DNA of 30,482 bases from a virus (IMGVR_UViG_3300005259_000021:1-30482), one strand, 5' to 3'. Counted from the stretch's first letter, positions 722-16,986 are shown. Notes: generated by a model not told the origin, from the letters alone. Made by a program: numbers and translations.

Positions 722-994
722 TCAAGCCCTCACCTTTCCGTTTCCTAAAAATATTACCTTCCAGCTTACTTGATCTGTGCTGTCGCTGGCCTCCATTAGT
801 TCAGCCTCTGGGATATTCGCCTCCCTGGCGTCCTTCAAGGTCACTTTTGCCAGCCGGGCCTCGGCGGAGAGCTCCACCTCCGGCCACATGTCCAGGGCCT
901 TGCACCTCTGCCTGGTCTTACCACTAACGATTAGAGTGAGATCCCGGACGGCCACAAAAATAAGGGATGAGGCCTTAAGCTGTAGCAGTTGCAC
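722..994 (-). CDS. Hypothetical protein, last gene of the leftward ardC-like operon
   Basis: GTG start preceded by GGAGGGGAGAGGG; overlaps the end of the upstream gene; no recognisable motif. Confidence 0.55.
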   Translation of the reverse strand: MQLLQLKASSLIFVAVRDLTLIVSGKTRQRCKALDMWPEVELSAEARLAKVTLKDAREANIPEAELMEASDSTDQVSWKVIFLGNGKVRA

Positions 995-1835
995 GCCCTC
1001 TCCCCTCCGGAAGCTTGCCGGTCATGACGTATTCCACAGCCTCGCGGGCCTGCTTACTGGCCTTCAAAACCCATTTAGGATTACTCTGCAAAGCCTTCAG
1101 CCAGGAGCCAATATATGCAGTGGAGTTTTGCAGGGTCTGGGATGTATCGAGGGCGGCAATCTGGCAGAGGAAGGCGGCGCCCATCTCGGCGGTGAGCTCC
1201 TCCTGGCTCCTCACATCCGTTCCCATGTGGTAGTCCCTGAGGGTTTCCCGACTAAGCCTCTCAGCTCCTCCCGTCCAATGTATCAGTTCGTGAAACGCCG
1301 CTGCATAATAATCTTCACTGCTGTCGAACTGATCAAGAGTAGGAAGATAAATCGTATCGCTTTGCGAGCAATAATAAGCCTTTTTGAGATCGGCCTCTAT
1401 GCGGGGACCTCTCCGCCGCAGTAACTCCTCAGCGCCGACGACCTGATGATTTTCCCTCTCCCCGGGAAGCTTCTTAGGCAAGCCCTTTGTCTGGCACCAG
1501 TTAAAGACGGTATAGTACTTGAGGAAGTTCAGAATTCTAAGGGAGACCTCGCCCTTTTCGTTCTGCTCCTCCTTTACTACGCGGTCAGCAAAGACAATTG
1601 GCCGGCCCTTCTCACCGGCCTTGATGGAGCCTCCCATCTTCTGAGCCTGGCGGAATGTGACCCAGTAAGGGCTCTCGTAATTCGACTGCAAGAGGAGGGT
1701 ATTGATCCCTTGATACTCCTTGTTTGTAACATAGGATGTAGGCCAGCAGTCCTGCCAGGGACGACGCCAGGGAACTATTCCCTGGCCAAGCTGCTTTAGT
1801 ATCTGGCCGGTCACGACCTGGAAGACGTCCTTCAT
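975..1835 (-). CDS. ardC: ArdC-like ssDNA-binding antirestriction protein (DUF1738 N-terminal plus zincin-like metalloprotease domain)
   Basis: Motifs PWRRPW, YQGIN, WVTFRQA..GG.IKAGEKG, YYTVFN, HELIHWTG (HExxH), EELTAEMGAAFLC and YIGSWL are typical of ArdC. Confidence 0.9.
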   Translation of the reverse strand: MKDVFQVVTGQILKQLGQGIVPWRRPWQDCWPTSYVTNKEYQGINTLLLQSNYESPYWVTFRQAQKMGGSIKAGEKGRPIVFADRVVKEEQNEKGEVSLRILNFLKYYTVFNWCQTKGLPKKLPGERENHQVVGAEELLRRRGPRIEADLKKAYYCSQSDTIYLPTLDQFDSSEDYYAAAFHELIHWTGGAERLSRETLRDYHMGTDVRSQEELTAEMGAAFLCQIAALDTSQTLQNSTAYIGSWLKALQSNPKWVLKASKQAREAVEYVMTGKLPEGRGRATATA

Positions 1836-3219: not shown

Positions 3220-3253
3220 AAACCCCCCGGAATGTGGGGGGTCCGGGGGGTTT
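3220..3253. repeat. Perfect 12-bp stem hairpin
   Basis: aaaccccccgga-N10-tccggggggttt. Confidence 0.8.
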
Positions 3254-3254
3254 G

Positions 3255-3630
3255 CGTTAATTCCCACAGCGACGAGCACGGACCCCCACGGGTTGGGGTC
3301 CGCGCGCAGGAGCGTGCCTACTCGCATGCCCGGATCAACCGAAGAGAGGAAGCCGTACAGGAAAGCTCATGCCCCCTGATTACTGACAGAGGCCCTGTGC
3401 CCCCTGGACTCTCGACCGAAAAGCTCCCGCCCCGGAATTTCCGCCGCATGAAAGGTCCCCCGTGTATGGGGTTAGAGGAAGCCCGCACGGCGCTTGAGTG
3501 CGCCCCCACCCCTTCCGCGCGTTTTATCGCGCGCGGCACCCCATAAGAAGAAGCTCAAGCAGCAGAATTTTGGGGGAGAGGCCCCAACTGGCCCTGGAGA
3601 GGGCCATCCAGGCCCTCCTCCTAACAGTCC
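3255..3630 (+). repeat. Long structured direct repeat, copy 1
   Basis: Colinear with 4570-4914; shared blocks include aattcccacagcgacgagcacggaccccca, catgccccctgattactgacaga and agaagaagctcaagcagcagaattttgggggagaggcccca. Confidence 0.9.
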
Positions 3631-3640
3631 CGCAATCTCC

Positions 3641-3676
3641 GAAAAGTATTTATGCGCAAGCGCTAACGCAAGCGCA
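3641..3676 (+). promoter_or_regulatory. BRE/TATA promoter with four RCGCWA hexamers running into a leaderless ATG
   Basis: gaaaag tatttat gcgcaa gcgcta acgcaa gcgca-ATG. Confidence 0.65.
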
Positions 3677-3880
3677 ATGCCAGAAAAAAGGGATAAAGTG
3701 ATCGACCGGATCAACGCCCCGGTCCTTGCCACCGCCAAGCATGTCCTGAATGAGTTTCAGGAAAAAGGAAACTACAGCTCCCAGAGCGATGCACTCAGCG
3801 ACCTGCTGCTGGATTACGGAAGGCTCCAGGAGAGGGTAAAGGAGCTTGAAGCCCAACAGGCCGAAGCGAAAAAGAGTTAA
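3677..3880 (+). CDS. RHH-like DNA-binding protein with coiled-coil tail, paralog 1
   Basis: 67 aa; strand-helix-SQSDAL-helix pattern; 45/57 identical to 6916-7113 over the aligned part. Confidence 0.7.
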   Translation: MPEKRDKVIDRINAPVLATAKHVLNEFQEKGNYSSQSDALSDLLLDYGRLQERVKELEAQQAEAKKS

Positions 3881-3913
3881 TCTGCGCAGAGTATAAACTT
3901 ATTTGAGATATCG

Positions 3914-4234
3914 GTGGTGGAGCCAATTAGCCTCATCGATGAAATCAAAATGATGATCTCCAGACGAGATTATCACCTCACGTTTCACGCCCGCGCCAGG
4001 ATGTTTGAGCGGCACATTTCCAACCGAGACCTGGTAGACTTAATAATGAACGGAGAGGTAATAGAAGAATATCCTGACAGGGAGCCCTGTCCTGCCGTCC
4101 TCATACTGGGATTCGTGTCGGGTCGTCAGTGCCATGCAGTTGTGGCCTGCTGCATGGATCACCTGCGGATCATCACAGTATACTGGCCAGATGAAGAGAG
4201 ATGGATAAATCACTGCCTGAGGAAGAACGAATGA
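3914..4234 (+). CDS. DUF4258-family putative toxin
   Basis: Motifs TFHARARMFERHI, GEVIEEYPD and IITVYWPD...W; coupled to a YgiT-type gene. Confidence 0.85.
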   Translation: MVEPISLIDEIKMMISRRDYHLTFHARARMFERHISNRDLVDLIMNGEVIEEYPDREPCPAVLILGFVSGRQCHAVVACCMDHLRIITVYWPDEERWINHCLRKNE

Positions 4235-4476
4235 TACCGGATACTTGCAGTTTTTGCAAGGGCAAGCTGCACGAAGGCAAAAAGGAATTCGTTGTTAAAG
4301 TAAAGAATGAAGTAGTGGTCATCAAAGATGTTCCTGCCCTTGTATGTGACTGCTGCGATGAAGCGTATATCACTCCTGAGATCTCCGAAAAAATAGATGA
4401 AATCATGGAGGAGTTTTATGCTGGAAAGCTCCTGGCAAAACCTTTAGCTGCTGGAGAAGTGGCATTGAAAGCATGA
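4231..4476 (+). CDS. YgiT-type (MqsA-like) zinc-finger putative antitoxin
   Basis: CSFCKG...VVIKDVPALVCDCCDEAY; ATGA overlap with the DUF4258 gene. Confidence 0.85.
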   Translation: MIPDTCSFCKGKLHEGKKEFVVKVKNEVVVIKDVPALVCDCCDEAYITPEISEKIDEIMEEFYAGKLLAKPLAAGEVALKA

Positions 4477-4569
4477 CCTGATTCAAAAGACGACGCAGCT
4501 CTCACGCAAGCGTGAGAAGACCGTATTCTGACGGCAAAGACCCGTCCAAGCTCATTATCCCAGGTTTTA

Positions 4570-4914
4570 CGTCAATTCCCACAGCGACGAGCACGGACCC
4601 CCACTGGTTGGGGTCCACGCGCAGGAGCGTGCCAACTCGCATGCCATGATCAACCTGAAAGGCAGAAAGTACAGGAAATCTCATGCCCCCTGATTACTGA
4701 CAGAAGCCCTGTGCCCCCTGGACTCAAGGCCGAGAACTCCTGCCCCGGATGCATCATCGAGTCCAAGCCTTCCCGGCGTTGAGGGAGCCCCAACCCTCCC
4801 GCGCGTTTTACCGCGCTCGGCACTCCAGAAGAAGAAGCTCAAGCAGCAGAATTTTGGGGGAGAGGCCCCATTCGGCCCTCTCCAGGGCCTGCCAGGATCT
4901 CCTCCAAAAAGTCC
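4570..4914 (+). repeat. Long structured direct repeat, copy 2
   Basis: Colinear with 3255-3630 apart from an internal gap of about 30 bp. Confidence 0.9.
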
Positions 4915-7975: not shown

Positions 7976-9191
7976 GGCCAGTGGTGAATCGTGCCCCACT
8001 GCTACGCTGCAAATCTAGATATACCATAATAGCGTAGAACACTCTTATGCTTAAGGCGTACAAGTACCGGATCTATCCAACCAAGTCCCAAAGTACCATG
8101 ATGGAGAGAACCTTAGACTTGTGCCGCTGGACATACAACCAGACCTTGGCATATCGAAAAGATGCTTGGGAGAAAGAAGGCAAATCCATCTCAAAATATG
8201 AGACAAATGCGCTTCTCCCAATCTGGAAATCTGATAAACCGGAACTTAAAGACGTATATGCTCAGACCCTCCAGAATGTTCAGGAAAGGGTAGATCTGGC
8301 TTTCAAGGCTTTCTTCAGGCGGGTTAAGGCAGGCGAGGAACCCGGATATCCTCGATTTCGGGGAAAAGGTTGGTACGACTCGTTCACCTACCCACAACCT
8401 GAGAAAGGGATTAAGGTTCTTGCCGAAAAATTGCATGTTCCTAAGATCGGAGATATCAAGATCAAGCTGCATAGACAGATCGAAGGCAGGATCAAGCGTC
8501 TGACGATTCGCAGAGCTGCAACCGGGAAATGGTTTGCCTGTTTCTCGGTCGAGATTGAGGATCTGCCAAAACCTCCCTGGAAAGATGGGTCAATCGTCGG
8601 CATAGATGTCGGCTTGGCGAGCTTTGCCACTCTCTCAAATGGCGAGAAGATCCCCAATCCAAGGTTTTTCCGGGATGAGGAAAAGGAACTCGCTAGGGTC
8701 CAAAGGAAGCTCTCAAAAGCTGCTAAAGGTACTCTTGAGAGGAAGGCTGCCTTAAAGGTCGTTGAACGGGTCCATGAGAGGATTGCTAACAAAAGATATG
8801 AATTTGTTCATCAAGTCAGCCGGGGGCTAGTTAATAGATTCGGCTTGATCGCTTTTGAAGATCTGAACATCAAGAACATGCTTCAAAATCATTGCCTTGC
8901 TAAATCCATCTCGGATGTGGCTTGGAATATGCTTGTGACTGTGACATCTTACAAAGCTGAAAATGCTGGTTCGATTGTCGTCCTGGTAGATCCGAGAAAC
9001 ACTTCTAAGATGTGCTCAAGGTGTGGTATTCTGGTCGAAAAAACTTTGGCTGATCGAGTCCATAATTGCTCGGAGTGCGGGCTATCTCTGGATCGAGATT
9101 GGAATGCAGCCATAAACATTCTGAGATTGGGACTTCAATCTCTGCCAATCAACGGCTAGAAGCCCCGCCCTTCAAGGCAGGGAGAAGTCAC
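7976..9191 (+). mobile_element. IS200/IS605-family (IS1341-like) tnpB-only element
   Basis: Right end gaagccccgcccttcaaggcagggagaagTCAC (hairpin plus TCAC); left end inferred after TTTA (7972-7975); no tnpA. Confidence 0.7.
8047..9159 (+). CDS. tnpB: RNA-guided endonuclease TnpB
   Basis: KAYKYRIYP N-terminus, GYPRFR, RuvC residues in GIDVG / FEDL / DRDWNAAINI all intact, Zn ribbon CSRC..CSEC. Confidence 0.95.
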   Translation: MLKAYKYRIYPTKSQSTMMERTLDLCRWTYNQTLAYRKDAWEKEGKSISKYETNALLPIWKSDKPELKDVYAQTLQNVQERVDLAFKAFFRRVKAGEEPGYPRFRGKGWYDSFTYPQPEKGIKVLAEKLHVPKIGDIKIKLHRQIEGRIKRLTIRRAATGKWFACFSVEIEDLPKPPWKDGSIVGIDVGLASFATLSNGEKIPNPRFFRDEEKELARVQRKLSKAAKGTLERKAALKVVERVHERIANKRYEFVHQVSRGLVNRFGLIAFEDLNIKNMLQNHCLAKSISDVAWNMLVTVTSYKAENAGSIVVLVDPRNTSKMCSRCGILVEKTLADRVHNCSECGLSLDRDWNAAINILRLGLQSLPING

Positions 9192-9731: not shown

Positions 9732-10137
9732 ATGACTGATGCCATCTTCTCGATCAAGCACCGCTACGCAGAGCGCATTTACAGCGGCCATAAGTGCGTG
9801 GAGCTGCGGCGGACGGCTCCCAAGACGCCCATAGAGAGAGCCTGGATCTACGAAACTGCGCCGGTAAAAAGGGTTACAGGCTGGTTTTGAGCCCGGCCTG
9901 ATTTATCCGGCGATGGACTGCGAGGCCCTCCTGGAGCAGTTCGGAGAGGAGAAATGCCTGGGGATAAAGGTCGCCGGGACCAAGGATGAGCGGCTCCTGG
10001 CGATGATCGAGGCCCTGGGAGACAGGCCTCTGCACGCAATCAGCATAGAAAGAGCCCAGAGGATAAGCCCGGTGGAGCTTCGCATCCGGCCACCGCAGAG
10101 CTGGATGTACTGCAAGAAGATGGCAACGCTCGGCTAA
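9732..10137 (+). pseudogene. ASCH/PUA-like domain protein with a one-base frameshift
   Basis: MTDAIFSIKHRYAERIYSGHKCVELRR...WIYETAPVKRVTGWF stops at TGGTTTTGA (9882-9890); removing one T continues to ...RPPQSWMY. Confidence 0.85.
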
Positions 10138-10139
10138 GC

Positions 10140-10175
10140 GTTTTCGATGGGTTACGACTTTTCAGTCATGGAGAC
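10140..10175 (-). repeat. CRISPR-like solitary repeat A (most degenerate, distal)
   Basis: Plus strand gttttcgatgggttacgacttttcagtcatggagac. Confidence 0.8.
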
Positions 10176-10196
10176 GTTATCTCTTCTTCTGCCATG

Positions 10197-11075
10197 CTAT
10201 TCGCCTTGACCTTTTTGATTTCGTTTAATGATTTCCCTTAGTTCATCTAGCGAAAGTACCTCGTCTTTCTTTCGGTGGATCATTCTATGACAGTTTGAAC
10301 ATACAACTGCCATTTCGGTTTTAGGATCAACATTAGTCTCTTTTTCGAGCGTGCTAACGGGCTTCAGATGATGAACTTCAATAAAATTTGCCCCTCGTTC
10401 TCCATATCTTTGCTTGAAATCGAAATCACAAGCCATACATTTGAACCCATGAATCCCAATTGTTTTTTTGCGTAGTTTCCTATTGCGTTCATAGAAATTA
10501 ATAAATCTTTGATCTATTTTCCCTTCAATTAACTTTTCTTTTTCTTCTTCTGCTAAAATCGAATCTAAATCTGCATCAATTGTTGATTCTAGAGATGAGT
10601 TGGTATTTTCGGGCACCACAATGAGCTTTTGATTATTGGACTTTTTTTCCTCTTCTATAGTTTTATAAACATTATTTAGCTTTCTTGTTTTATTTGGCTT
10701 ATCCAATTCATTCTTCAAATCAGATATACCCATTTTCATAGAATCGGCTACAGCATTTTGAATTCGTTTACATTCGGGGCAGCTCACATATCGCCGATAG
10801 CTATTGGGGTGAACCTGTCTGTGATGTTCTCGCCAATTAGGCATGTAATTGTTGCAGCAATCATCGAAGACGCATTCACCATATTTCTTGTTCTTGCAGT
10901 AGCTCCTGCCTTCTGGGAGTTTGTTTGATTTTCGCTCATATAATAGACAGGAAGCCCACGGATGATAATCAGGCTGGCCGGGCTTAGACTCTCCAAATTT
11001 GGCGCTCAATTTCTCCCAATCATCCAAATCGTGTTGTGCTGCTGCTAGTTTTCCCTTAAGGATTACTTCATCCAT
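10197..11075 (-). CDS. HNH endonuclease (McrA-like C-terminal domain) with Cys-rich N-terminal domain
   Basis: EGK...YERN..LR...CMACDFDF..RYG...FIEVHHLKPVS...CSNCHRMIH. Confidence 0.9.
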   Translation of the reverse strand: MDEVILKGKLAAAQHDLDDWEKLSAKFGESKPGQPDYHPWASCLLYERKSNKLPEGRSYCKNKKYGECVFDDCCNNYMPNWREHHRQVHPNSYRRYVSCPECKRIQNAVADSMKMGISDLKNELDKPNKTRKLNNVYKTIEEEKKSNNQKLIVVPENTNSSLESTIDADLDSILAEEEKEKLIEGKIDQRFINFYERNRKLRKKTIGIHGFKCMACDFDFKQRYGERGANFIEVHHLKPVSTLEKETNVDPKTEMAVVCSNCHRMIHRKKDEVLSLDELREIIKRNQKGQGE

Positions 11076-11115
11076 TGATTAATTCCCCGTATTCCCTGCC
11101 ATTGGTGCTTTGACT

Positions 11116-11151
11116 GTTTCAATGGAGCCACGACTTTTCAGACATGGAGAC
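11116..11151 (-). repeat. CRISPR-like solitary repeat B
   Basis: Plus strand gtttcaatggagccacgacttttcagacatggagac; 40 nt upstream of the HNH start. Confidence 0.9.
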
Positions 11152-11160
11152 AAGAAAAAA

Positions 11161-11707
11161 TTATGAGCTCATTGGACTAACGATAACGTTTCCCACCAAC
11201 TGCGATATCATTTCTTCCTGCCCTGTTGATGGACAGCTCCAGTAATCTCTCTCCTCGCTCATTTTGCGAGTAGGGAGCAGGTTTATATTCCAAACCTCCC
11301 ACCGAAGCGGATCTCCGGTGGAAACCACTGTAACAAGAGTGCTCTCACTCTTATTGAGAATGATATTACCATAATCCCTTGTTTTCACAAGGGTACCCGC
11401 TGGCCACGACACGAGAAACATGGTGTCATTGGCTGACCACCCGGCATTCAACATCGCCTGGTAGAAAGCGACAGGAGATGTGTTCCCCCTAACTTCAACC
11501 CTGGCAGCCGCGACTGTCCGCTTAAGAAAATCAACAGACGGTGGCGTCATCTCAATGCAGGCTTGAATGGTGCGGGTAGCGTTCTCGCCGAGATTGATGA
11601 CGGTTTTTTGCCACCAACTCTCTTGCATCGAAGCAAGGAGTAGCGTTCACTACGTTACTAATCAACAAACTAATTAACAAGCTGGCTAACAGATACGTTA
11701 CTTTCAT
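11161..11707 (-). pseudogene. Secreted paralog 4, frameshifted just after the signal peptide
   Basis: MKVTYLLASLLISLLISNVVNATPCF (ATG 11707) is out of frame near 11629 with QESWWQK...YQAMLNAGW...RWEVWNIN. Confidence 0.75.
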
Positions 11708-11723
11708 CTCTCTCATACCTCTT

Positions 11724-11841
11724 GTTTTCCATGAAAACTGAATTATCATGTCGGTAGATCTTGTTTCCCATCTGTCACGTATGAGCCCCAGCCCGGGCTT
11801 ATGGGCGTTTCAATGAGGCACGATTTTTCAGCCATTGAGAC
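11724..11841 (-). repeat. CRISPR-like repeat C (11807-11841) plus conserved leader
   Basis: gtttcaatgaggcacgatttttcagccattgagac; leader colinear with 12468-12553 and 15901-15984. Confidence 0.9.
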
Positions 11842-11876
11842 ATTTCTTTTCATACTTTCCTTAATAAAAGAAAAAA

Positions 11877-12446
11877 TTATGAATCAAAATATTCGGTCGC
11901 GTTAAACACGTCTACCGAGTATAAAGTGACTATCGCATTAGGGTCAGCCACTATTTTGTCGGTATCAGGGTCATAGTAGGCGTTGAATTCAAGGGGCATA
12001 TAAGCGTAAATACTATTTGGTGGGTTTGCATTATTAGCTTCCCATTTTCCATAAGTGTTTAAAGACGCTGTATAAACTGCTTCACCTTCCTGAACTGTAC
12101 CGCCGTTTAGCGGTTGAGTACCGTACTTACCGATTTTCATCGGTACTTTCTGCCAGCCATTTCTCCAAAGACTTGCTGCAAAATCCTTCGCAGAGTAATT
12201 GCGTTTTTCTGTAGCACTAAGCTTGATATACTCAGCATATGCAGATACTTGCGCCTTCGATAGATTCCCGAAACTATCAGGAATAACGAGTTCGCAATCT
12301 TCCGGTGCTTTTAGTGCGGGCGCCGCCTGAATAGTTAAGCCGTTTTTATAAGACATATCTATCAACCAGTCGTAACCGCAAGGAGCGGCAGCACTTAAAA
12401 AAATACTCAATAACATTACTATACCTACTGCTGCTACTAATCTCAT
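11877..12446 (-). CDS. Secreted paralog 3 (189 aa)
   Basis: GGAGGT RBS; signal peptide MRLVAAVGIVMLLSIFLSAAA; LNTYGKWEANNAN. Confidence 0.85.
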   Translation of the reverse strand: MRLVAAVGIVMLLSIFLSAAAPCGYDWLIDMSYKNGLTIQAAPALKAPEDCELVIPDSFGNLSKAQVSAYAEYIKLSATEKRNYSAKDFAASLWRNGWQKVPMKIGKYGTQPLNGGTVQEGEAVYTASLNTYGKWEANNANPPNSIYAYMPLEFNAYYDPDTDKIVADPNAIVTLYSVDVFNATEYFDS

Positions 12447-12467
12447 TTTCGAAACCTCCTGCTTGTC

Positions 12468-12590
12468 CAGTTTCCCATGGAAACTGAATTCATAATGTCG
12501 ATAGATCTTGTTTTCCATCTGTCCCATGTGAGCCCCTACCTGAACGCATGGGCGTTTCAAAGGGACCACGAATTTTCAGGTCATGGAGAC
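12468..12590 (-). repeat. CRISPR-like repeat D (12554-12590) plus conserved leader
   Basis: gtttcaaagggaccacgaattttcaggtcatggagac; the repeat supplies the last codons and stop of gene 12576-13064. Confidence 0.9.
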
Positions 12591-13064
12591 ATTAAACCGC
12601 TCCACCTTAAACGCTCTAACAGTATCAACGACGGTCGTTTTCCCAGTTATGGGACTAAACCACGCATCCAAATCTGCGGCATTTTTACCATATAGATTTG
12701 CGTTGTTCACTTCCCAATTTCCGTACTGGTTTATGGTTATCGTGATAAGGGTAGACCCTGTGCTGCCATCATCCCTGGTGTACCAGAGAAACCGCATTTC
12801 TTCTCGCCAATTTTTCTTATTTTTTAATTGTGTGGCGAGTTCTTCGTATGTAGTACAGTTTCCTCGCAGTTCCTCAACGTAGCTGATGAACTGCGACGAA
12901 GTGTTTTGGGGCGAAAGCATACATCTCGACTCCTCCGCTTGGGTGTTATGAAACCCCGTATACACCTTCTCTAATAACCACCCTCTGTCGCATTGTTGGG
13001 CGGTTGCGTTCGCAACTACTATCCCTGACAAAATAAATATAAGAGCTATTTTGCTCAATTTCAA
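12576..13064 (-). CDS. Secreted paralog 2 (162 aa)
   Basis: AAGGAGG RBS plus TTG; signal peptide ...IVVANATA; INQYGNWEVNNAN. Confidence 0.85.
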   Translation of the reverse strand: MKLSKIALIFILSGIVVANATAQQCDRGWLLEKVYTGFHNTQAEESRCMLSPQNTSSQFISYVEELRGNCTTYEELATQLKNKKNWREEMRFLWYTRDDGSTGSTLITITINQYGNWEVNNANLYGKNAADLDAWFSPITGKTTVVDTVRAFKVERFNVSMT

Positions 13065-13161
13065 TTACATTCCTCCTTAACGCGATCTTTCGCATCAACT
13101 AGCTATCGGCTCTCCAAATCCCACCAGCGACCGATGGGAATCACCAGAGACCCGCCGTATT

Positions 13162-13256
13162 AAATAAGGCTCGATGATCCGGGAGCAGGCCCCGGCTGCA
13201 ATCCATGCCTCCATAGATCGCTAGCGTGCTGTTGGGCGCTGAGCAGGCCATGAAGC
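13162..13256. repeat. 95-bp intergenic repeat, copy of 16032-16126
   Basis: Five mismatches in 95 bp by manual alignment. Confidence 0.92.
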
Positions 13257-13282
13257 TTTAGTCACACGGTTAAAAAAGAAAG

Positions 13283-13795
13283 TTAAGCGGCACAATCCCA
13301 CTTCCGAGATATTACCGACATATTCGTTTTTATACCGGCCACAGGATCATTTGGGATGTTGAAATGGATTCCATCAGAACCCTTCCACACTACGTTGACT
13401 ATGACCTCGCGCCCATCAATAATGGTACTAGTCACAAAAGAGTCGCCCTTTCCAATCATGTACTCCTTTATTACACCATTTTTTGTTACGGTGAATTTTA
13501 CACTATCGAAATACGCACAACAAGAAGGATTTTTCAGCCCTGCGTCTCTGAAAGCTTTTTCGATCTCTGTTGCATTTGGTGCTCCATCATGTCCATAATA
13601 CAACTTAGACCAGGCTTCAGCCCCTATCTTACCGATTTCGTCCAAATTTTGGGTCGTGCTGTCGTTTACGCAGGGATTATTGATATCTTCCCCACCACGA
13701 TAAGTTTCCGTAACGAGCTCTACAAACTGGCTTCCACTTACTGCACTAATACTTATTATTGCACTTATTATCAAAACTAAAAACGACTTTTTCAT
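13283..13795 (-). CDS. Secreted protein (170 aa), likely distant paralog 1
   Basis: GGAGG RBS; signal peptide MKKSFLVLIISAIISISAVSG; EKAFRDAGL. Confidence 0.8.
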   Translation of the reverse strand: MKKSFLVLIISAIISISAVSGSQFVELVTETYRGGEDINNPCVNDSTTQNLDEIGKIGAEAWSKLYYGHDGAPNATEIEKAFRDAGLKNPSCCAYFDSVKFTVTKNGVIKEYMIGKGDSFVTSTIIDGREVIVNVVWKGSDGIHFNIPNDPVAGIKTNMSVISRKWDCAA

Positions 13796-13814
13796 TAATC
13801 TTCCTCCACAGGGC

Positions 13815-13850
13815 GTTTCAATTGGGCCACGACTTTTCAGCCATTGATAC
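13815..13850 (-). repeat. CRISPR-like solitary repeat E
   Basis: gtttcaattgggccacgacttttcagccattgatac; 19 nt upstream of ATG 13795. Confidence 0.9.
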
Positions 13851-13902
13851 AGAGTAATGAAAGGACGCTTCATCCCAGGGATCTCTTTTCTTTATTAGAT
13901 AG

Positions 13903-14847
13903 TCACGAAGAAGGCAAATCAGCAACGAGACAACAACGGCATCCCATTTTACAGGTACATTCTTCATAAGGCAGTTCAGGCACTTTATTTATTGAATAAG
14001 TATTATTCTTTAATTCCCTGCAATGCTCACATGCATTATCGGCAACGATAATCCTCGCTTTTTTGAATCCGCATTTTTTTAATTCATGCAAATTTTTTAA
14101 ATAACTTGGATGGAAAATTAACATTCTTGCGGCGGACTCAGCGCCAAGACTGGAGTCGATATGAAAATCTGGTGGTAGCCAGTTTTTTACATTCCTGCAA
14201 GAAAGGAGATACATCATCGCCGCAACGACTCGCAATGCATTAAGTTGGTGATCTTTGATATTTTTTAAAATTTTAGGCTTACTGGCAAAAATTTCTTTAA
14301 TAAAAGTCGAGTCATAATCAATCCCTGTAGAGAATACAGCCTGCTGATGATAAGAATTTGCAATTTGACATGCTTTATCTAATTCTAAATTCTGAAGAGC
14401 TTGGAATACCTGCTGTTCCACTGCCGATTTTTTCTCTTTCTCCTCGTCTAAATAGCTCGCAGAGACAGCCTCGCCTTTTTCTGAGCACTCAAATATCTCG
14501 AGTCCCCTTACCAACACCTCAACGCCTGTTGCATCCGCTTCGATCAGCCTTTCGATTAGGATGTCCTTCTTACCAGTGACTTTCAATCCTCGAGCCTTCA
14601 GCAGATCTTTTAATTCTGGCAGTTTGAATTTATGATCTAGCTTCCCATTAATTCCTGCGGGTTCTATAAATCCATTGTCGATGAACCAGTCGAGAGCTTT
14701 CTTGGGCGGTTCTTTGAGTACCGTCTCCCAACCATCATCTTTCATGAAATCCTTGAGAGCATGTGGGTGAAGGAATCTACTCAAGAAGAAAAGGTGTGCT
14801 GGATCTTTTTCTCGATTGAAGCCCATGATTCTTTTCAAAAATTCCAT
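13903..14847 (-). CDS. SAP-domain protein with C-terminal Cys cluster
   Basis: FKLPELKDLLKARGLKVTGKKDILIERL is a SAP motif; CEHC...CTCKMGCRC. Confidence 0.8.
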   Translation of the reverse strand: MEFLKRIMGFNREKDPAHLFFLSRFLHPHALKDFMKDDGWETVLKEPPKKALDWFIDNGFIEPAGINGKLDHKFKLPELKDLLKARGLKVTGKKDILIERLIEADATGVEVLVRGLEIFECSEKGEAVSASYLDEEKEKKSAVEQQVFQALQNLELDKACQIANSYHQQAVFSTGIDYDSTFIKEIFASKPKILKNIKDHQLNALRVVAAMMYLLSCRNVKNWLPPDFHIDSSLGAESAARMLIFHPSYLKNLHELKKCGFKKARIIVADNACEHCRELKNNTYSINKVPELPYEECTCKMGCRCCLVADLPSS

Positions 14848-15076
14848 TTATCTCGCCCTCATGATTGTGATAAATAGCAGAGGAGAAAAAGATTTTGGCT
14901 GGCGTACCTTATGACTTTCTAAAAGTTCGCTAGAGGGGTCTCAGGAGGGTTTACTTTTTCACTTTCGTGCGCCTTAAACTCCATGCTCATCCAGAATCCT
15001 CTTCGTTACCTCTGCGAAGGATTCCCCAACGACTTCACTCATAATTGCCTGGAATAGTGATATCTCATACAACTGG

Positions 15077-15367
15077 CTAACCCCTGCTTGAATGTTCTAG
15101 CCTATCAAATATAGCCCTCGCTTCTTCCTCAGCGCGGGATCTCTTCAGCTCTAAATCCTTTTCTGTGAGGAACTGGTCCATTTCAACCCAGCCAGTCTGA
15201 TCTTGGTGGATCAAATATAGGAAATCCAAGAACATCTGCTCGTTAAGCTCATGCTTGCCATGCATGCTATCTTCAACGATAGCATATGTGCCCAATCGTT
15301 TTTTATCTGGAAGCTTATATCTCTCAAAGATTTCAGCACTAAACGATAATCTCCTTCTTTTTACCAT
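15077..15367 (-). CDS. Hypothetical protein (96 aa)
   Basis: Protein-like composition and co-oriented with neighbours; no motif. Confidence 0.55.
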   Translation of the reverse strand: MVKRRRLSFSAEIFERYKLPDKKRLGTYAIVEDSMHGKHELNEQMFLDFLYLIHQDQTGWVEMDQFLTEKDLELKRSRAEEEARAIFDRLEHSSRG

Positions 15368-15531
15368 GAGAGTGATTTAATGCATCCCACCAACTGTTAA
15401 AGGTATTGCCGAGCCACCGTTCCTGGGCCGGCGTGCCAGATCCGAGAGGCAGCCTCGCCTTATTAGACTTGGACACCATGTAGATTAATGATGAGCACGT
15501 AGAACATAGAGGGAAAAGGAGGACGAAGATG

Positions 15532-15825
15532 TTAAGCCTTCCCAATTGCCTTCTTATACCGATTCATTGCCTTTCTTGCCGTCAAAGGCTCCTCGCTGTG
15601 AACAGTAAATGGGTTGCCGATTAAATAATAGCCTGCAGAATATTTTCCTCCACAGTGTGCCCCTCGATGCCCCCATTCGTTCGGCCCTTCGCTGCCTTCA
15701 GGCTTACCACCTGATCCATGCAGATGGATCTCGCCGCAATACGGACAAATAACGAATACATGCACTTTATTAGCCGCTATCACCGTTGCCGGTCTTTCAT
15801 TATCTAATTCGATTATATCGCTCAT
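15532..15825 (-). CDS. Small Zn-binding viral protein (97 aa)
   Basis: CPYCGEIHLHG...GHRGAHC; start taken at MSDIIEL because the upstream extension runs through the repeat leader. Confidence 0.7.
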   Translation of the reverse strand: MSDIIELDNERPATVIAANKVHVFVICPYCGEIHLHGSGGKPEGSEGPNEWGHRGAHCGGKYSAGYYLIGNPFTVHSEEPLTARKAMNRYKKAIGKA

Positions 15826-15900
15826 CTCTTCTTGCTCCGTGATAAAATCTATTTGATTATCAAATGAAAAACCTTTTGTCCGTAGAATCTTGAGCAGGTG

Positions 15901-16019
15901 AGTTTCCCATGGGAAACTGAATTTTGAAGTCGATAGATCTTGTTTACATTCTGTCTCGTGTGAGCCCTGCCTGGGCACATGGGCGTTTCAATGGGCCACG
16001 ACTTTTCAGCCATGGGTAA
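15901..16019 (-). repeat. CRISPR-like repeat F (15985-16019) plus conserved leader with a perfect 18-bp palindrome
   Basis: gtttcaatgggccacgacttttcagccatgggtaa; agtttcccatgggaaact at 15901-15918. Confidence 0.9.
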
Positions 16020-16031
16020 TTGGCAGCCGAG

Positions 16032-16126
16032 AAATAGGGCTCGATGATCCGGGAGCTGGCCCCGGCTGCGATCCATGCCTCCAAAGATCGCAAGCGTGCT
16101 GTTGGGCGCTGAGCAGGCCATGAAGC
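16032..16126. repeat. 95-bp intergenic repeat, immediately upstream (minus strand) of repeat F
   Basis: Matches 13162-13256. Confidence 0.92.
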
Positions 16127-16281
16127 AGGAAATTAGCCAGGCCTGGCGGAGACGGCATCTCTCGCACTCCCGGCTAAATCCCGCCGCCGCTGCCGTAACC
16201 ACCGAGGAGAGAGGGTGGGGTCCGGGGAGGGGGAGAGGGAGAGGAGGCACAAGCCAGGAGAACCGGACGCAATGAGACAGC

Positions 16282-16986
16282 CTAGAACTCCATGATGAGC
16301 CTTGAGCCGGCTATTTCTGCCGCCTTGTCCTCTATGCAGCCCAGGGAAAGGCAGGGCTCAGCTTCATTCAATTTTCGGGTAGCTTCATCTCTGCGGTAGA
16401 TTTCTGCATCCCGCTGGTCTTCGGCATTGCGTATGTAAGCCTCTGAGTCATAAATTAGCTGCTGGATCTCGGCTGCGGTCGTTATGCAGTCCTCAGCCAT
16501 TTGTAAATATTCCTCTGCCTGCCAGAATAGCTCGTCTACCATGTCCTGCTGTTCCGGAGTCAGCTCCTCGTTCTCGTCCATGATCCTCTGTGCTGCATCC
16601 ATTGCCTGATTTGCGAGCTGGTTATATGTGACTGCATTGCCGTCTTGCTGGGCCTTATCTCCTTTTTCCTCGCCCAATTGCAGCTCTCGCTCGGCTATTT
16701 TGTCATCCCAGGCCACAATTTCCACGGCTGCATCGTAATACTGCTGCCTCAGTTCGCTGTGGCTGTTGATTATCTCCTCTCGCTTGTCTCGCCACAGCCC
16801 GGTTATTGTGTGCATGCGCCAGAGGCACCGGCATTTATCGTGCTGCGGGATCTCATAAGGCGGCTCCGGCTCCTCTTCGGCAGTGAACCAGCCATCGAGT
16901 TCCAAACATATGGGGCAGCAGCCGGATTTTGCTACGTGCTCAAAAAGGTAAATTGTGGCAATAGGACATTCGACATCACTAGCCAT
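16282..16986 (-). CDS. Acidic coiled-coil protein with N-terminal MuF-like Cys/His motif
   Basis: CCPIC..LDG...PQHDKCRC followed by a long acidic helical region; last gene of the structural operon. Confidence 0.7.
   Translation of the reverse strand: MASDVECPIATIYLFEHVAKSGCCPICLELDGWFTAEEEPEPPYEIPQHDKCRCLWRMHTITGLWRDKREEIINSHSELRQQYYDAAVEIVAWDDKIAERELQLGEEKGDKAQQDGNAVTYNQLANQAMDAAQRIMDENEELTPEQQDMVDELFWQAEEYLQMAEDCITTAAEIQQLIYDSEAYIRNAEDQRDAEIYRRDEATRKLNEAEPCLSLGCIEDKAAEIAGSRLIMEF

What the first reader, a model, noticed from the sequence alone, without database searches (positions are those of the whole stretch)
10140..16019. CRISPR-like repeats punctuating whole genes: a viral array with gene-sized inserts instead of spacers
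Seen: six 35-37 bp copies in one orientation at 10140, 11116, 11807, 12554, 13815 and 15985, minus-strand consensus about GTCTCCATGGCTGAAAAGTCGTGGCCCCATTGAAAC. They are separated by 0.65-2.1 kb holding 1-3 co-oriented genes and sit at gene boundaries. The stem CCAUGGCU-GAAA-AGUCGUGG needs two G-U pairs, so it folds fully only on the mRNA strand, and copy A changes one G-U to A-U. Established: a ~36-nt hairpin repeat ending ATTGAAAC is the class 1 CRISPR repeat pattern cut by Cas6-family enzymes to leave an 8-nt handle, and from memory it resembles type I-G (I-U) repeats. Solitary repeats on viruses can act as RNA anti-CRISPRs. Inference: the virus may (a) use host Cas6/Csb2 to process this polycistron, tying expression to host CRISPR status, (b) make decoy crRNAs, or (c) use the repeats as recombination or integration sites for gene cassettes. 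No cas gene is in the window.
Basis: partly seen in the sequence, partly recalled or inferred. Interest (0 to 1): 0.92.

Follow-up and report, generated by a model that had tools for sequence, protein, structure and literature searches.

The report
CRISPR repeats as viral gene-swapping joints
A virus of methane-making archaea carries six worn copies of its host's CRISPR repeat with whole genes between them; related viruses gain and lose genes at these repeats, and a host jumping gene whose predicted guide RNA matches the repeat's last eight letters likely drives the swapping.

Summary
The six repeats are real and are host CRISPR repeats: a 32-nt consensus matches Methanotrichaceae arrays exactly, beside cas4g-cas1g/cas2, Csb2-type Cas6 and type III-B or I-G genes. 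Gene content is not fixed. Seven related viral loci show one repeat and no cargo, one cassette between two repeats, a true array, or two of the window's genes in swapped order. One viral cassette is 97% identical to the DNA behind a host array and starts exactly at ATTGAAAC. This IS inserts precisely after ATTGAAAC, and its predicted bridge-RNA guide covaries with the insertion site across 11 guide classes (37 of 44 positions; 0 of 100,000 shuffles). Best reading: a cassette array joined at CRISPR repeats, with IS110 and its mini-element as the likely engine (0.55). Five of six copies have damaged hairpins, so Cas6 processing or decoy RNA is unlikely as the main role; no RNA data were available. 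How cargo 3' ends became joined to repeat 5' ends is unexplained. Novelty: new variant of a known kind.

The parts
9732..10137 (+). ASCH-domain gene (split by a frameshift here, intact in L014); fixed viral flank whose stop abuts the array
   Evidence: Pfam ASCH weak hit; conserved in relatives with the same junction
10140..10175 (-). R1, degenerate CRISPR repeat; 6 of 8 stem pairs, handle damaged; possibly a scar of imprecise mini-element loss
   Evidence: L013, L014 and L167 carry repeat + mini-element at this spot; scar reading is inference
10197..11075 (-). Cargo: HNH endonuclease (weak type IV restriction-like hit)
   Evidence: Pfam PF01844, PHROGs, PADLOC 6e-5; 81% identical host homolog L097 has no flanking repeats
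11116..11151 (-). R2, CRISPR repeat, 35 of 36 identical to the repeat of array L015; one stem pair broken
11161..11716 (-). Cargo B: small protein with hydrophobic N-terminus, frameshifted near 11630; weak paralog of D
   Evidence: two ORFs; BLASTP to D E=0.005; no family hit; secretion is inferred from the N-terminus
11724..11806 (-). IS110-derived mini-element 1 (83 bp), inserted after the ATTGAAAC of R3
   Evidence: (D5)
11807..11841 (-). R3, CRISPR repeat; 5 of 8 stem pairs, 1-nt deletion, handle intact
   Evidence: pair count read from the sequence
11877..12449 (-). Cargo C: 190-aa protein with hydrophobic N-terminus, paralog of D (23% identity)
   Evidence: E=2e-8; no family or usable atlas hit
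12470..12553 (-). IS110-derived mini-element 2 (84 bp), after R4
12554..12590 (-). R4, CRISPR repeat with a 1-nt insertion that supplies the stop codon of gene D
   Evidence: homolog P0002 reads through an intact repeat and mini-element
12576..13064 (-). Cargo D: 162-aa protein with hydrophobic N-terminus; travels with R4 in virus L081
   Evidence: 3 homologs only; not found with this query in 105 host genomes
13162..13256 (.). Duplicated 95-bp viral junction sequence (D7), similar to part of a tail-region gene; not a CRISPR part
   Evidence: 80-83% match inside ORFs of L079, L085, L041
13283..13780 (-). Cargo E: 165-aa protein with hydrophobic N-terminus; on the other side of D in L081
   Evidence: 2 homologs; not found with this query in 105 host genomes
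13807..13814 (-). Possible 8-nt stub of a deleted mini-element after R5
   Evidence: resembles the element's first bases; inference
13815..13850 (-). R5, CRISPR repeat; 7 of 8 stem pairs, handle intact
13903..14847 (-). Cargo F: SAP-domain protein
   Evidence: Pfam PF02037; 71% host homolog L094 without flanking repeats
15077..15367 (-). Cargo G: 96-aa unknown protein
   Evidence: no family hit
15532..15828 (-). Cargo H: 98-aa protein with a CxxC motif
   Evidence: no family hit
15902..15984 (-). IS110-derived mini-element 3 (83 bp), after R6
15985..16019 (-). R6, first repeat in transcription order; full 8-bp stem, handle intact, 1-nt deletion between them
16032..16240 (.). D7 and D7b viral junction sequences; other fixed flank, where some relatives carry a host-type CRISPR leader
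16282..16986 (-). Minor head-like protein, last gene of the structural block (terminase, portal, capsid further right)
   Evidence: PHROGs, Pfam

Best explanation
The six copies are host CRISPR repeats that mark the joints of a variable cargo region in a Methanothrix-family virus, where genes are gained, lost and reordered at repeat boundaries, and a host IS110 recombinase with its 84-bp mini-element likely drives the swapping by acting at the repeat's ATTGAAAC end. Shown by sequence comparison: repeat identity, filled and empty sites of the mini-element, its two ends matching a full IS110, guide-target covariation, and a viral cassette that equals a host array's trailer flank. Inferred steps: (1) the IS110 protein and bridge RNA, supplied in trans by the host, insert the mini-element after ATTGAAAC in repeats and at look-alike sites in front of other genes; (2) recombination between such joints, by the IS110 enzyme itself or by ordinary homologous recombination over the ~120-bp repeat+element unit, places new DNA behind a repeat; (3) precise loss of the element leaves repeat|gene; (4) the far end of each cargo is closed by an imprecise event next to the 5' end of another repeat; (5) repetition and tandem duplication (paralogs B, C, D) built the six-repeat array, whose downstream copies now decay.
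For: Exact host repeat in 12 genome loci, including 23- and 21-copy arrays. Seven related viral loci differ at this spot: element+repeat with no cargo (L013/L016), one gene pair between two repeats (L014), array+leader (L015), repeat+leader (L022), leader-repeat-2.5 kb-repeat (L084), genes D and E in swapped order (L081), cargo-repeat-element (L167). An empty joint 10137->15983 stands in run X2. The 84-bp block has the first ~47 and last ~16 bases of a 1.6-kb IS110 (Pfam DEDD_Tnp_IS110 and Transposase_20). Of 46 listed element ends, 41 distinct flanks, 31 begin with exact GTTTCAAT; at least three repeat families and non-CRISPR sites are hit. One IS copy sits in the ATTGAAAC of another copy's own non-coding region (L065). 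The four bases before AAAC in the predicted RNA loop match the four bases before the element's core at 37 of 44 positions over 11 guide classes; shuffle mean 12.5, 0 of 100,000 reach 37. The L014 viral cassette is 97% identical over 807 bp to host L109 and starts right after ATTGAAAC; hosts L109 and L123 have the element at that base, behind two unrelated repeat families. A RelE pair starts after GAAAC in three contexts: a repeat, the element, and a non-repeat TTTGAAAC. Window and L081 share D+R4 and diverge at the base after GAAAC. Half-site recombination is reported for IS621 (10.64898/2026.08.31.748434, abstract and section 8).
Against: No experiment and no circular cassette intermediate was seen. 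IS110 acts at the repeat's 3' end, but cargo is also joined to repeat 5' ends (a truncated gene in L084; gene D fused in frame), which it does not explain. R1 and R2 carry no element and R5 at most a stub. No IS110 gene was found on the window or four related viral records (0 of 5; all incomplete). Eight related loci with no repeat still carry variable cargo between ASCH, D7 and D7b pieces, and the window has other cassettes between plain direct repeats, so the region is recombinogenic anyway. Host homologs of the HNH and SAP cargo are not repeat-flanked, and D and E were not found in 105 host genomes, so a host-array origin is shown only for the L014 cassette. Repeat-flanked host cassettes L050, L053, L055 and L059 show no copy of this element. 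The element set was fetched with a query containing the repeat, so the share of repeat versus non-repeat sites is biased. The shuffle test used one flank per class and ignores relatedness; 25 of 30 fetched loci entered the alignment, 5 being dropped for lying too near a contig end or lacking a usable hit.
Confidence: 0.55

Rival explanations
1. The virus integrates into host arrays through its repeat (or recombines with them by RadA), and imprecise excision carries off array-flanking DNA, as in specialised transduction; the IS110 mini-element is a passenger that lands on any ATTGAAAC.
For: L015 (array, leader, then virus) looks like one junction of an array-integrated provirus. L022 and L084 carry leader+repeat on the viral side. 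The L014 cassette is a host trailer flank with one precise and one ragged end, and L084 cargo ends in a truncated gene. Relatives encode tyrosine integrases (2 of 5 records). Precedent: phage AP1.1 integrates into CRISPR repeats and aberrant excision moves spacers (10.1101/2020.10.09.333658, abstract and section list).
Against: The matching second junction (ASCH, repeat, spacer, repeat) was not seen in any ASCH-bearing locus examined (8 of 105 genomes hit). In G106 the integrase lies about 15 kb from the repeat. About half the relatives lack a repeat. It does not by itself explain a cassette starting after a non-repeat TTTGAAAC or the same cassette behind two unrelated repeat families.
Confidence: 0.24
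2. The repeats are kept mainly as RNA signals: the host's Csb2-type Cas6 cuts the read-through transcript into gene-sized RNAs, or yields decoy crRNA mimics (Racr), for example the 8-nt handle plus the 84-nt element.
For: All cargo genes run in the array's transcription direction, fixed by the leader side of host arrays. R6 folds like the host repeat and four of six handles are intact. Hosts encode a stand-alone Cas6 half of Csb2; that domain cleaves repeat RNA in the Thioalkalivibrio system (PMC9638904, passages). Solitary repeats on viruses act as RNA anti-CRISPRs (PMC10651486, passages). Several genes start 20-40 nt after a joint, leaving little room for a promoter.
Against: Five of six stems are damaged, two handles are altered, and R3 and R6 have one base less between stem and handle. 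The one 'compensatory' change is a host variant. Eight related loci have no repeat. No cargo protein matched a named anti-CRISPR family in Pfam, NCBIfam, PHROGs or PADLOC, though these are not anti-CRISPR libraries.
Confidence: 0.13
3. The inserts are giant spacers: the host Cas4g-Cas1g/Cas2 integrase occasionally inserts kilobase fragments at a leader-proximal repeat, duplicating the repeat.
For: Leader-repeat-cargo-repeat occurs in virus L084 and host L110. Joints fall at both ends of full repeats, and some cargo ends cut through genes.
Against: Neighbouring repeats are not identical pairs (28-32 identities between window copies; the two L084 repeats differ). Leader-repeat-cargo also results from array collapse: L110 and the 38-repeat array L074 share the same trailer flank. 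The window has no leader. The same cassettes recur with the same start in several genomes, which random acquisition would not give.
Confidence: 0.08

Closest known systems
IS110/IS1111 elements guided to repeated targets: IS621 and ISPa11 (REP sequences), ISKpn4 and ISPst6 (integron attC sites) (PMC11208160, PMC11187229, passages read)
   Same: DEDD recombinase, non-coding region upstream of the gene, RNA loop matching the target next to a short core, precise insertion.
   Different: The target is the 8-nt 3' handle shared by several class 1 CRISPR repeat families in an archaeon; only one side of the target is constrained in the insertions seen; an 84-bp element without RNA or enzyme is widespread and sits in viruses.
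IS110 insertions splitting CRISPR arrays in Thermoanaerobacter (PMC4852346, passages read)
   Same: Repeated IS110 copies, and a MITE, inside CRISPR arrays.
   Different: In the passages read this is descriptive, with no guide RNA, no defined target base, no gene cassettes and no virus.
Non-autonomous ssr9 module of ISPpu9 (PMC12288879, abstract) and cargo-expanded IS110 loci (10.64898/2026.08.14.744561, abstract start and passages)
   Same: Short modules mobilised in trans by an IS110 enzyme; IS110 sites that accumulate cargo.
   Different: Here the module is only the two IS ends, and cargo is delimited by CRISPR repeats rather than held inside one expanded IS.
Solitary repeat units / RNA anti-CRISPRs (Racrs) (PMC10651486, passages read)
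   Same: Host-like repeats on a virus without cas genes, between genes.
   Different: Six copies in one run, most decayed, with documented gene gain and loss at their edges; no RNA test here.
Phage AP1.1 integrating into S. pyogenes type II-A repeats (10.1101/2020.10.09.333658, abstract and section list)
   Same: A temperate virus and a CRISPR repeat used as a DNA recombination site.
   Different: No complete pair of array-virus junctions was found here; whole genes rather than spacers are carried.
Integrons (recalled, not from a call)
   Same: Co-oriented, tightly fitted genes, many toxin-antitoxin pairs in the host versions, separated by a repeated site, in variable order.
   Different: No IntI, attI or attC; joints are CRISPR repeats; cassette far ends are ragged; excised circles not shown.

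Membership tests
Class 1 CRISPR repeat of the I-G (Csb2/Cas4g-Cas1g) family | Near-identical repeat in regular host arrays | tested here: met
   Exact 32-nt match in arrays of 23 and 21 copies; R1-R6 have 31, 35, 32, 31, 33, 33 identities to the nearest array repeat (R1 was cut one base too long there)
Class 1 CRISPR repeat of the I-G (Csb2/Cas4g-Cas1g) family | Arrays beside cas4g-cas1g, cas2 and Csb2 | tested here: met
   NF049935 and TIGR02165 over cut-off in L106, L108, L109, L118, L102
Type I-G system as the usual partner | Full-length Csb2 with Csb1 next to the array | tested here: inconclusive
   Met in L102; PF09609 in only 4 of 105 genomes; other loci have type III-B cmr genes and half-length Csb2
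Canonical CRISPR array or viral mini-array | Spacers of about 35-45 nt and a leader | tested here: not met
   Gaps 655-2134 bp, no leader in the window; met in relative L015
IS110-group bridge-RNA element (full partner in host) | DEDD_Tnp_IS110 plus Transposase_20 domains | tested here: met
   (L061, L065)
IS110-group bridge-RNA element (full partner in host) | Upstream non-coding region with a segment that covaries with the target | tested here: met
IS110-group bridge-RNA element (full partner in host) | Precise insertion at a short core, filled and empty sites | tested here: met
   L109/L123 versus L014; L074 versus L110
IS110-group bridge-RNA element (full partner in host) | RNA expressed, bound by the enzyme, circular intermediate | not testable with these tools
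   no RNA holder listed
Non-autonomous IS110 derivative (window elements) | Both IS ends, no transposase, multiple dispersed copies | tested here: met
Racr (RNA anti-CRISPR) | Repeat keeps the Cas6-bound hairpin | tested here: inconclusive
   met for R6 only
Racr (RNA anti-CRISPR) | Expressed, processed by Cas6, inhibits immunity | not testable with these tools
   no RNA holder listed
Integron | IntI integrase with attI and attC sites | tested here: not met
   no integrase domain among 36 window proteins; joints are CRISPR repeats; no dedicated attC model was run
Array-integrating temperate virus (AP1.1-like) | Provirus flanked by repeats of one host array on both sides | tested here: inconclusive
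   L015 fits one junction; the other junction not found

The most novel reading that the evidence does not exclude
Methanothrix and its viruses run an integron-like gene-capture system built from borrowed parts: CRISPR repeats are the attachment sites, an RNA-guided IS110 recombinase aimed at the universal 8-nt crRNA handle is the integrase, its 84-bp mini-element marks and primes joints, and host Cas6 may cut the co-oriented transcript into single-gene units. CRISPR loci would then store whole genes as well as spacers and trade them with viruses.
Probability: 0.3. Interest if true: 0.92.

Novelty: new variant of a known kind. Interest (0 to 1): 0.76.

Why it matters
It links two RNA-guided systems. 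An IS110 whose guide spells the 8-nt handle common to many class 1 repeats can hit several CRISPR families at once, split arrays and rewire what lies behind them. If it also shuffles genes between arrays and viruses, CRISPR repeats double as recombination sites and arrays become gene-exchange points in a key acetate-using methanogen. The system is small and testable in vitro: one protein, a ~170-nt RNA, an 84-bp donor and an apparently one-sided 8-bp target, which is also of interest for bridge-recombinase specificity. It offers a DNA-level origin for solitary repeats on viruses that does not require an anti-CRISPR role.

Tried and rejected
Rfam: no match. No tRNA in the window or in 10 loci near relatives' integrases and flanks. 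The 84-bp block as 'degenerate repeat + spacer' (CreA/CreR-like RNA): rejected, because it follows unrelated repeat types and non-CRISPR sites and matches IS110 ends; no shared fold among copies. D7 as a leader or non-coding RNA: rejected, it does not match host leaders and resembles coding sequence of a tail-region gene. Spacer-protospacer recombination as the source of 5' joints: 215 spacers from fetched arrays gave no full-length match to the window or 15 viral loci apart from L015's own; a small sample, so not excluded. One L015 spacer found only its own contig in viral contigs. An exact pattern for the element found nothing in viral contigs (too strict). Cargo functions: no family for B, C, D, E, G, H; ESM Atlas gave no usable hit for C or E; no structure prediction was run. 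Expression: no RNA holder listed. A GAAAC one spacer-length upstream of each repeat, predicted by one insertion model, is present before R2 only and lies in coding sequence; not used. Earlier-findings look-ups by words and by sequence gave nothing. Literature: ten full-text searches found no paper describing a guide RNA aimed at CRISPR repeats, this element, or repeat-delimited gene cassettes; most subscription papers and ISfinder are outside that library, most hits were seen only as listings, and no supplements were read (those of PMC11208160 and PMC4852346 could list such targets).

Full report
Setting. The window is a whole 30,482-bp viral record, about 45% complete, with terminase, portal and capsid genes. 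The array lies between a plus-strand ASCH gene and the end of the minus-strand structural block.

Observation. Six co-oriented repeats are present as described and exceed chance. The gaps are 940, 655, 712, 1224 and 2134 bp with eight minus-strand genes. Contigs from other public DNA runs span each repeat and its neighbours (4 runs, 3 studies, one possibly the source). Only R6 folds like the host repeat; the others have one to three broken stem pairs (pair counts read from the sequence).

The repeat. A 32-nt consensus matches 12 loci in named genomes, 11 of them Methanotrichaceae, including arrays of 23 and 21 exact copies. The leader side fixes transcription as ending in ATTGAAAC, the direction of the viral cargo. 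Neighbouring genes are cas4g-cas1g, cas2, a stand-alone Cas6 half of Csb2, type III-B cmr genes and, in one locus, a full I-G pair. Full-length Csb2 was found in 4 of 105 family genomes. So it is an I-G-family repeat that often serves type III. Several host variants exist, and the A-U change in R1 is one of them.

Related viruses. Seven distinct loci carry repeats at the same spot: element+repeat without cargo (L013/L016), a gene pair between two repeats (L014), an array with leader (L015), repeat+leader (L022), leader-repeat-2.5 kb-repeat (L084), genes D and E in swapped order (L081) and cargo-repeat-element (L167). Eight informative loci have no repeat (L024, L041, L077, L078, L079, L085, L159, L178, duplicates merged) and most hold other cargo between ASCH, D7 and D7b pieces; six more end too early to tell (L019, L026, L080, L087, L161, L164). 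Reads show an empty joint and a repeat-free joint. Gene content is therefore variable at repeat boundaries, inside a region that is variable anyway.

The missed part. An 83-84 bp block follows R3, R4 and R6. It is dispersed in host chromosomes and always abuts the ATTGAAAC end. Its ends match a 1.6-kb IS110 found inside arrays and at non-CRISPR sites. Among 46 listed ends with 41 distinct flanks, 31 begin with exact GTTTCAAT; the script called 33 of 46 repeat-adjacent, one of them wrongly (L061), and this share is biased by how loci were fetched. The other side of the insertion site shows no consensus. The IS has an upstream non-coding region predicted to form a long stem with loops; ATTGAAAC is invariant there in 5 of 5 copies. 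In diverged relatives this segment changes with the insertion flank: 37 of 44 positions over 11 guide classes, shuffle mean 12.5, none of 100,000 shuffles as high (25 of 30 loci used; relatedness not modelled). This is the signature described for bridge and seek RNAs (PMC11208160, PMC11187229; passages). No IS110 gene was found on five viral records, so any activity would be in trans.

Where cargo comes from. The L014 cassette is 97% identical over 807 bp to the DNA behind a 53-repeat host array; the virus has repeat|cassette, hosts L109 and L123 have repeat|element|cassette behind two unrelated repeat types. L110 and L074 form a second empty and filled pair. A RelE pair starts after GAAAC in three contexts, one not a repeat. 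Host chromosomes show repeat-separated cassettes, many of them toxin-antitoxin-like, in differing order. For the window itself the evidence is thinner: D travels with R4 and diverges at the base after GAAAC, but HNH and SAP homologs in hosts are not repeat-flanked, and D and E were not found in 105 host genomes. B, C and D are distant paralogs, so duplication contributed.

What is not explained. Cargo is also joined to the 5' ends of repeats, sometimes through a gene. IS110 does not act there. Imprecise recombination, aberrant proviral excision, spacer-protospacer recombination or Cas1 half-site integration are all possible; none was shown.

Mechanism. Most likely the repeats are DNA joints, and the host IS110 with its mini-element creates, primes and resolves them (0.55). 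Integration into arrays with sloppy excision is the main rival (0.24): L015 fits one junction, but the other was not found and the integrase in G106 is far from the repeat. RNA processing or decoy RNA as the main role is less likely (0.13), though R6 could still be cut; no RNA data were available. Giant Cas1 spacers are least likely (0.08).

Comparison. IS110 elements aimed at REP or attC sites are known, IS110 copies inside CRISPR arrays were noted descriptively in Thermoanaerobacter (PMC4852346, passages), MITEs shared by viruses and hosts are known (PMC11602168, passages), and solitary viral repeats and array-integrating phages are known. PMC10883916 (passages) reports a CRISPR-repeat-like protein-binding motif inside a Sulfolobus IS110, a different link. 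Passages of 10.64898/2026.08.14.744561, 10.64898/2026.10.21.760802 and PMC13343696 did not mention CRISPR repeats as IS110 targets. Ten searches found no description of a guide aimed at the CRISPR handle or of repeat-delimited gene cassettes; the library lacks most subscription papers and supplements were not read. Unchecked notes from this scan list other IS110 elements aimed at repeats, none at CRISPR repeats. The integron comparison is from recall.

Verdict. Real, not an artefact, and broader than one virus. A new variant of known kinds, interest 0.76; the integron-like reading has probability about 0.3.

Noticed in passing
L061:2772-4373; L060, L065, L066: Full 1.6-kb IS110 inserted at spacer-repeat junctions inside arrays of a second repeat family (next to cas6b and cas3), two to four copies per locus; in L065 one copy sits in the ATTGAAAC of another copy's own predicted guide region.
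   Followed up: yes
L126-L155: A family of related IS110 elements in 56 of 105 Methanotrichaceae genomes with at least 11 different guide segments; a second RNA segment appears to covary with the element's own subterminal sequence.
   Followed up: partly
L050, L053, L055, L059, L069, L076, L109, L110, L111, L116: Host chromosomes with solitary or few repeats separated by gene-sized cassettes, often toxin-antitoxin-like pairs (PIN, RelE, MqsA-like, nucleotidyltransferase/HEPN-like by eye), the same cassettes in different order.
   Followed up: partly
L106, L109, L118: Stand-alone ~262-aa genes matching only the Cas6 half of Csb2 (TIGR02165 positions ~250-487), near arrays with cas4g-cas1g; a likely crRNA maturase for type III-B here.
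   Followed up: partly
L106:8868-10631, L108, L109:12899-14758, L114, L122: A family A polymerase/exonuclease-like gene and a small SAVED-domain gene recur next to these arrays in several genomes, in varying position.
   Followed up: no
many host arrays (L027, L036, L045, L074, L076, L108, L109, L125): The mini-element sits almost always at the trailer-end repeat, while the full IS also sits inside arrays.
   Followed up: partly
window 3248-4914: A DUF4258 + MqsA-like gene pair (3914-4476) lies between long direct repeats (D4, D8, D13); similar pairs occur beside host arrays (L004, L006).
   Followed up: no
window 8047-9159: TnpB/IS605 OrfB gene; a close homolog lies right after element+array in host L125.
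   Followed up: no
window 975-1835: ArdC-like anti-restriction protein (ArdcN + MPTase-PolyVal).
   Followed up: no
L015:1-304: Viral record beginning with at least five perfect repeats and a host-type leader; either a virus-borne mini-array or a provirus junction. One spacer searched found no target.
   Followed up: partly
L014:3060-3640, L022, L085, L086, L088, L178: Another small gene with a hydrophobic N-terminus moves between relatives flanked by duplicated D7b sequence, without CRISPR repeats.
   Followed up: no
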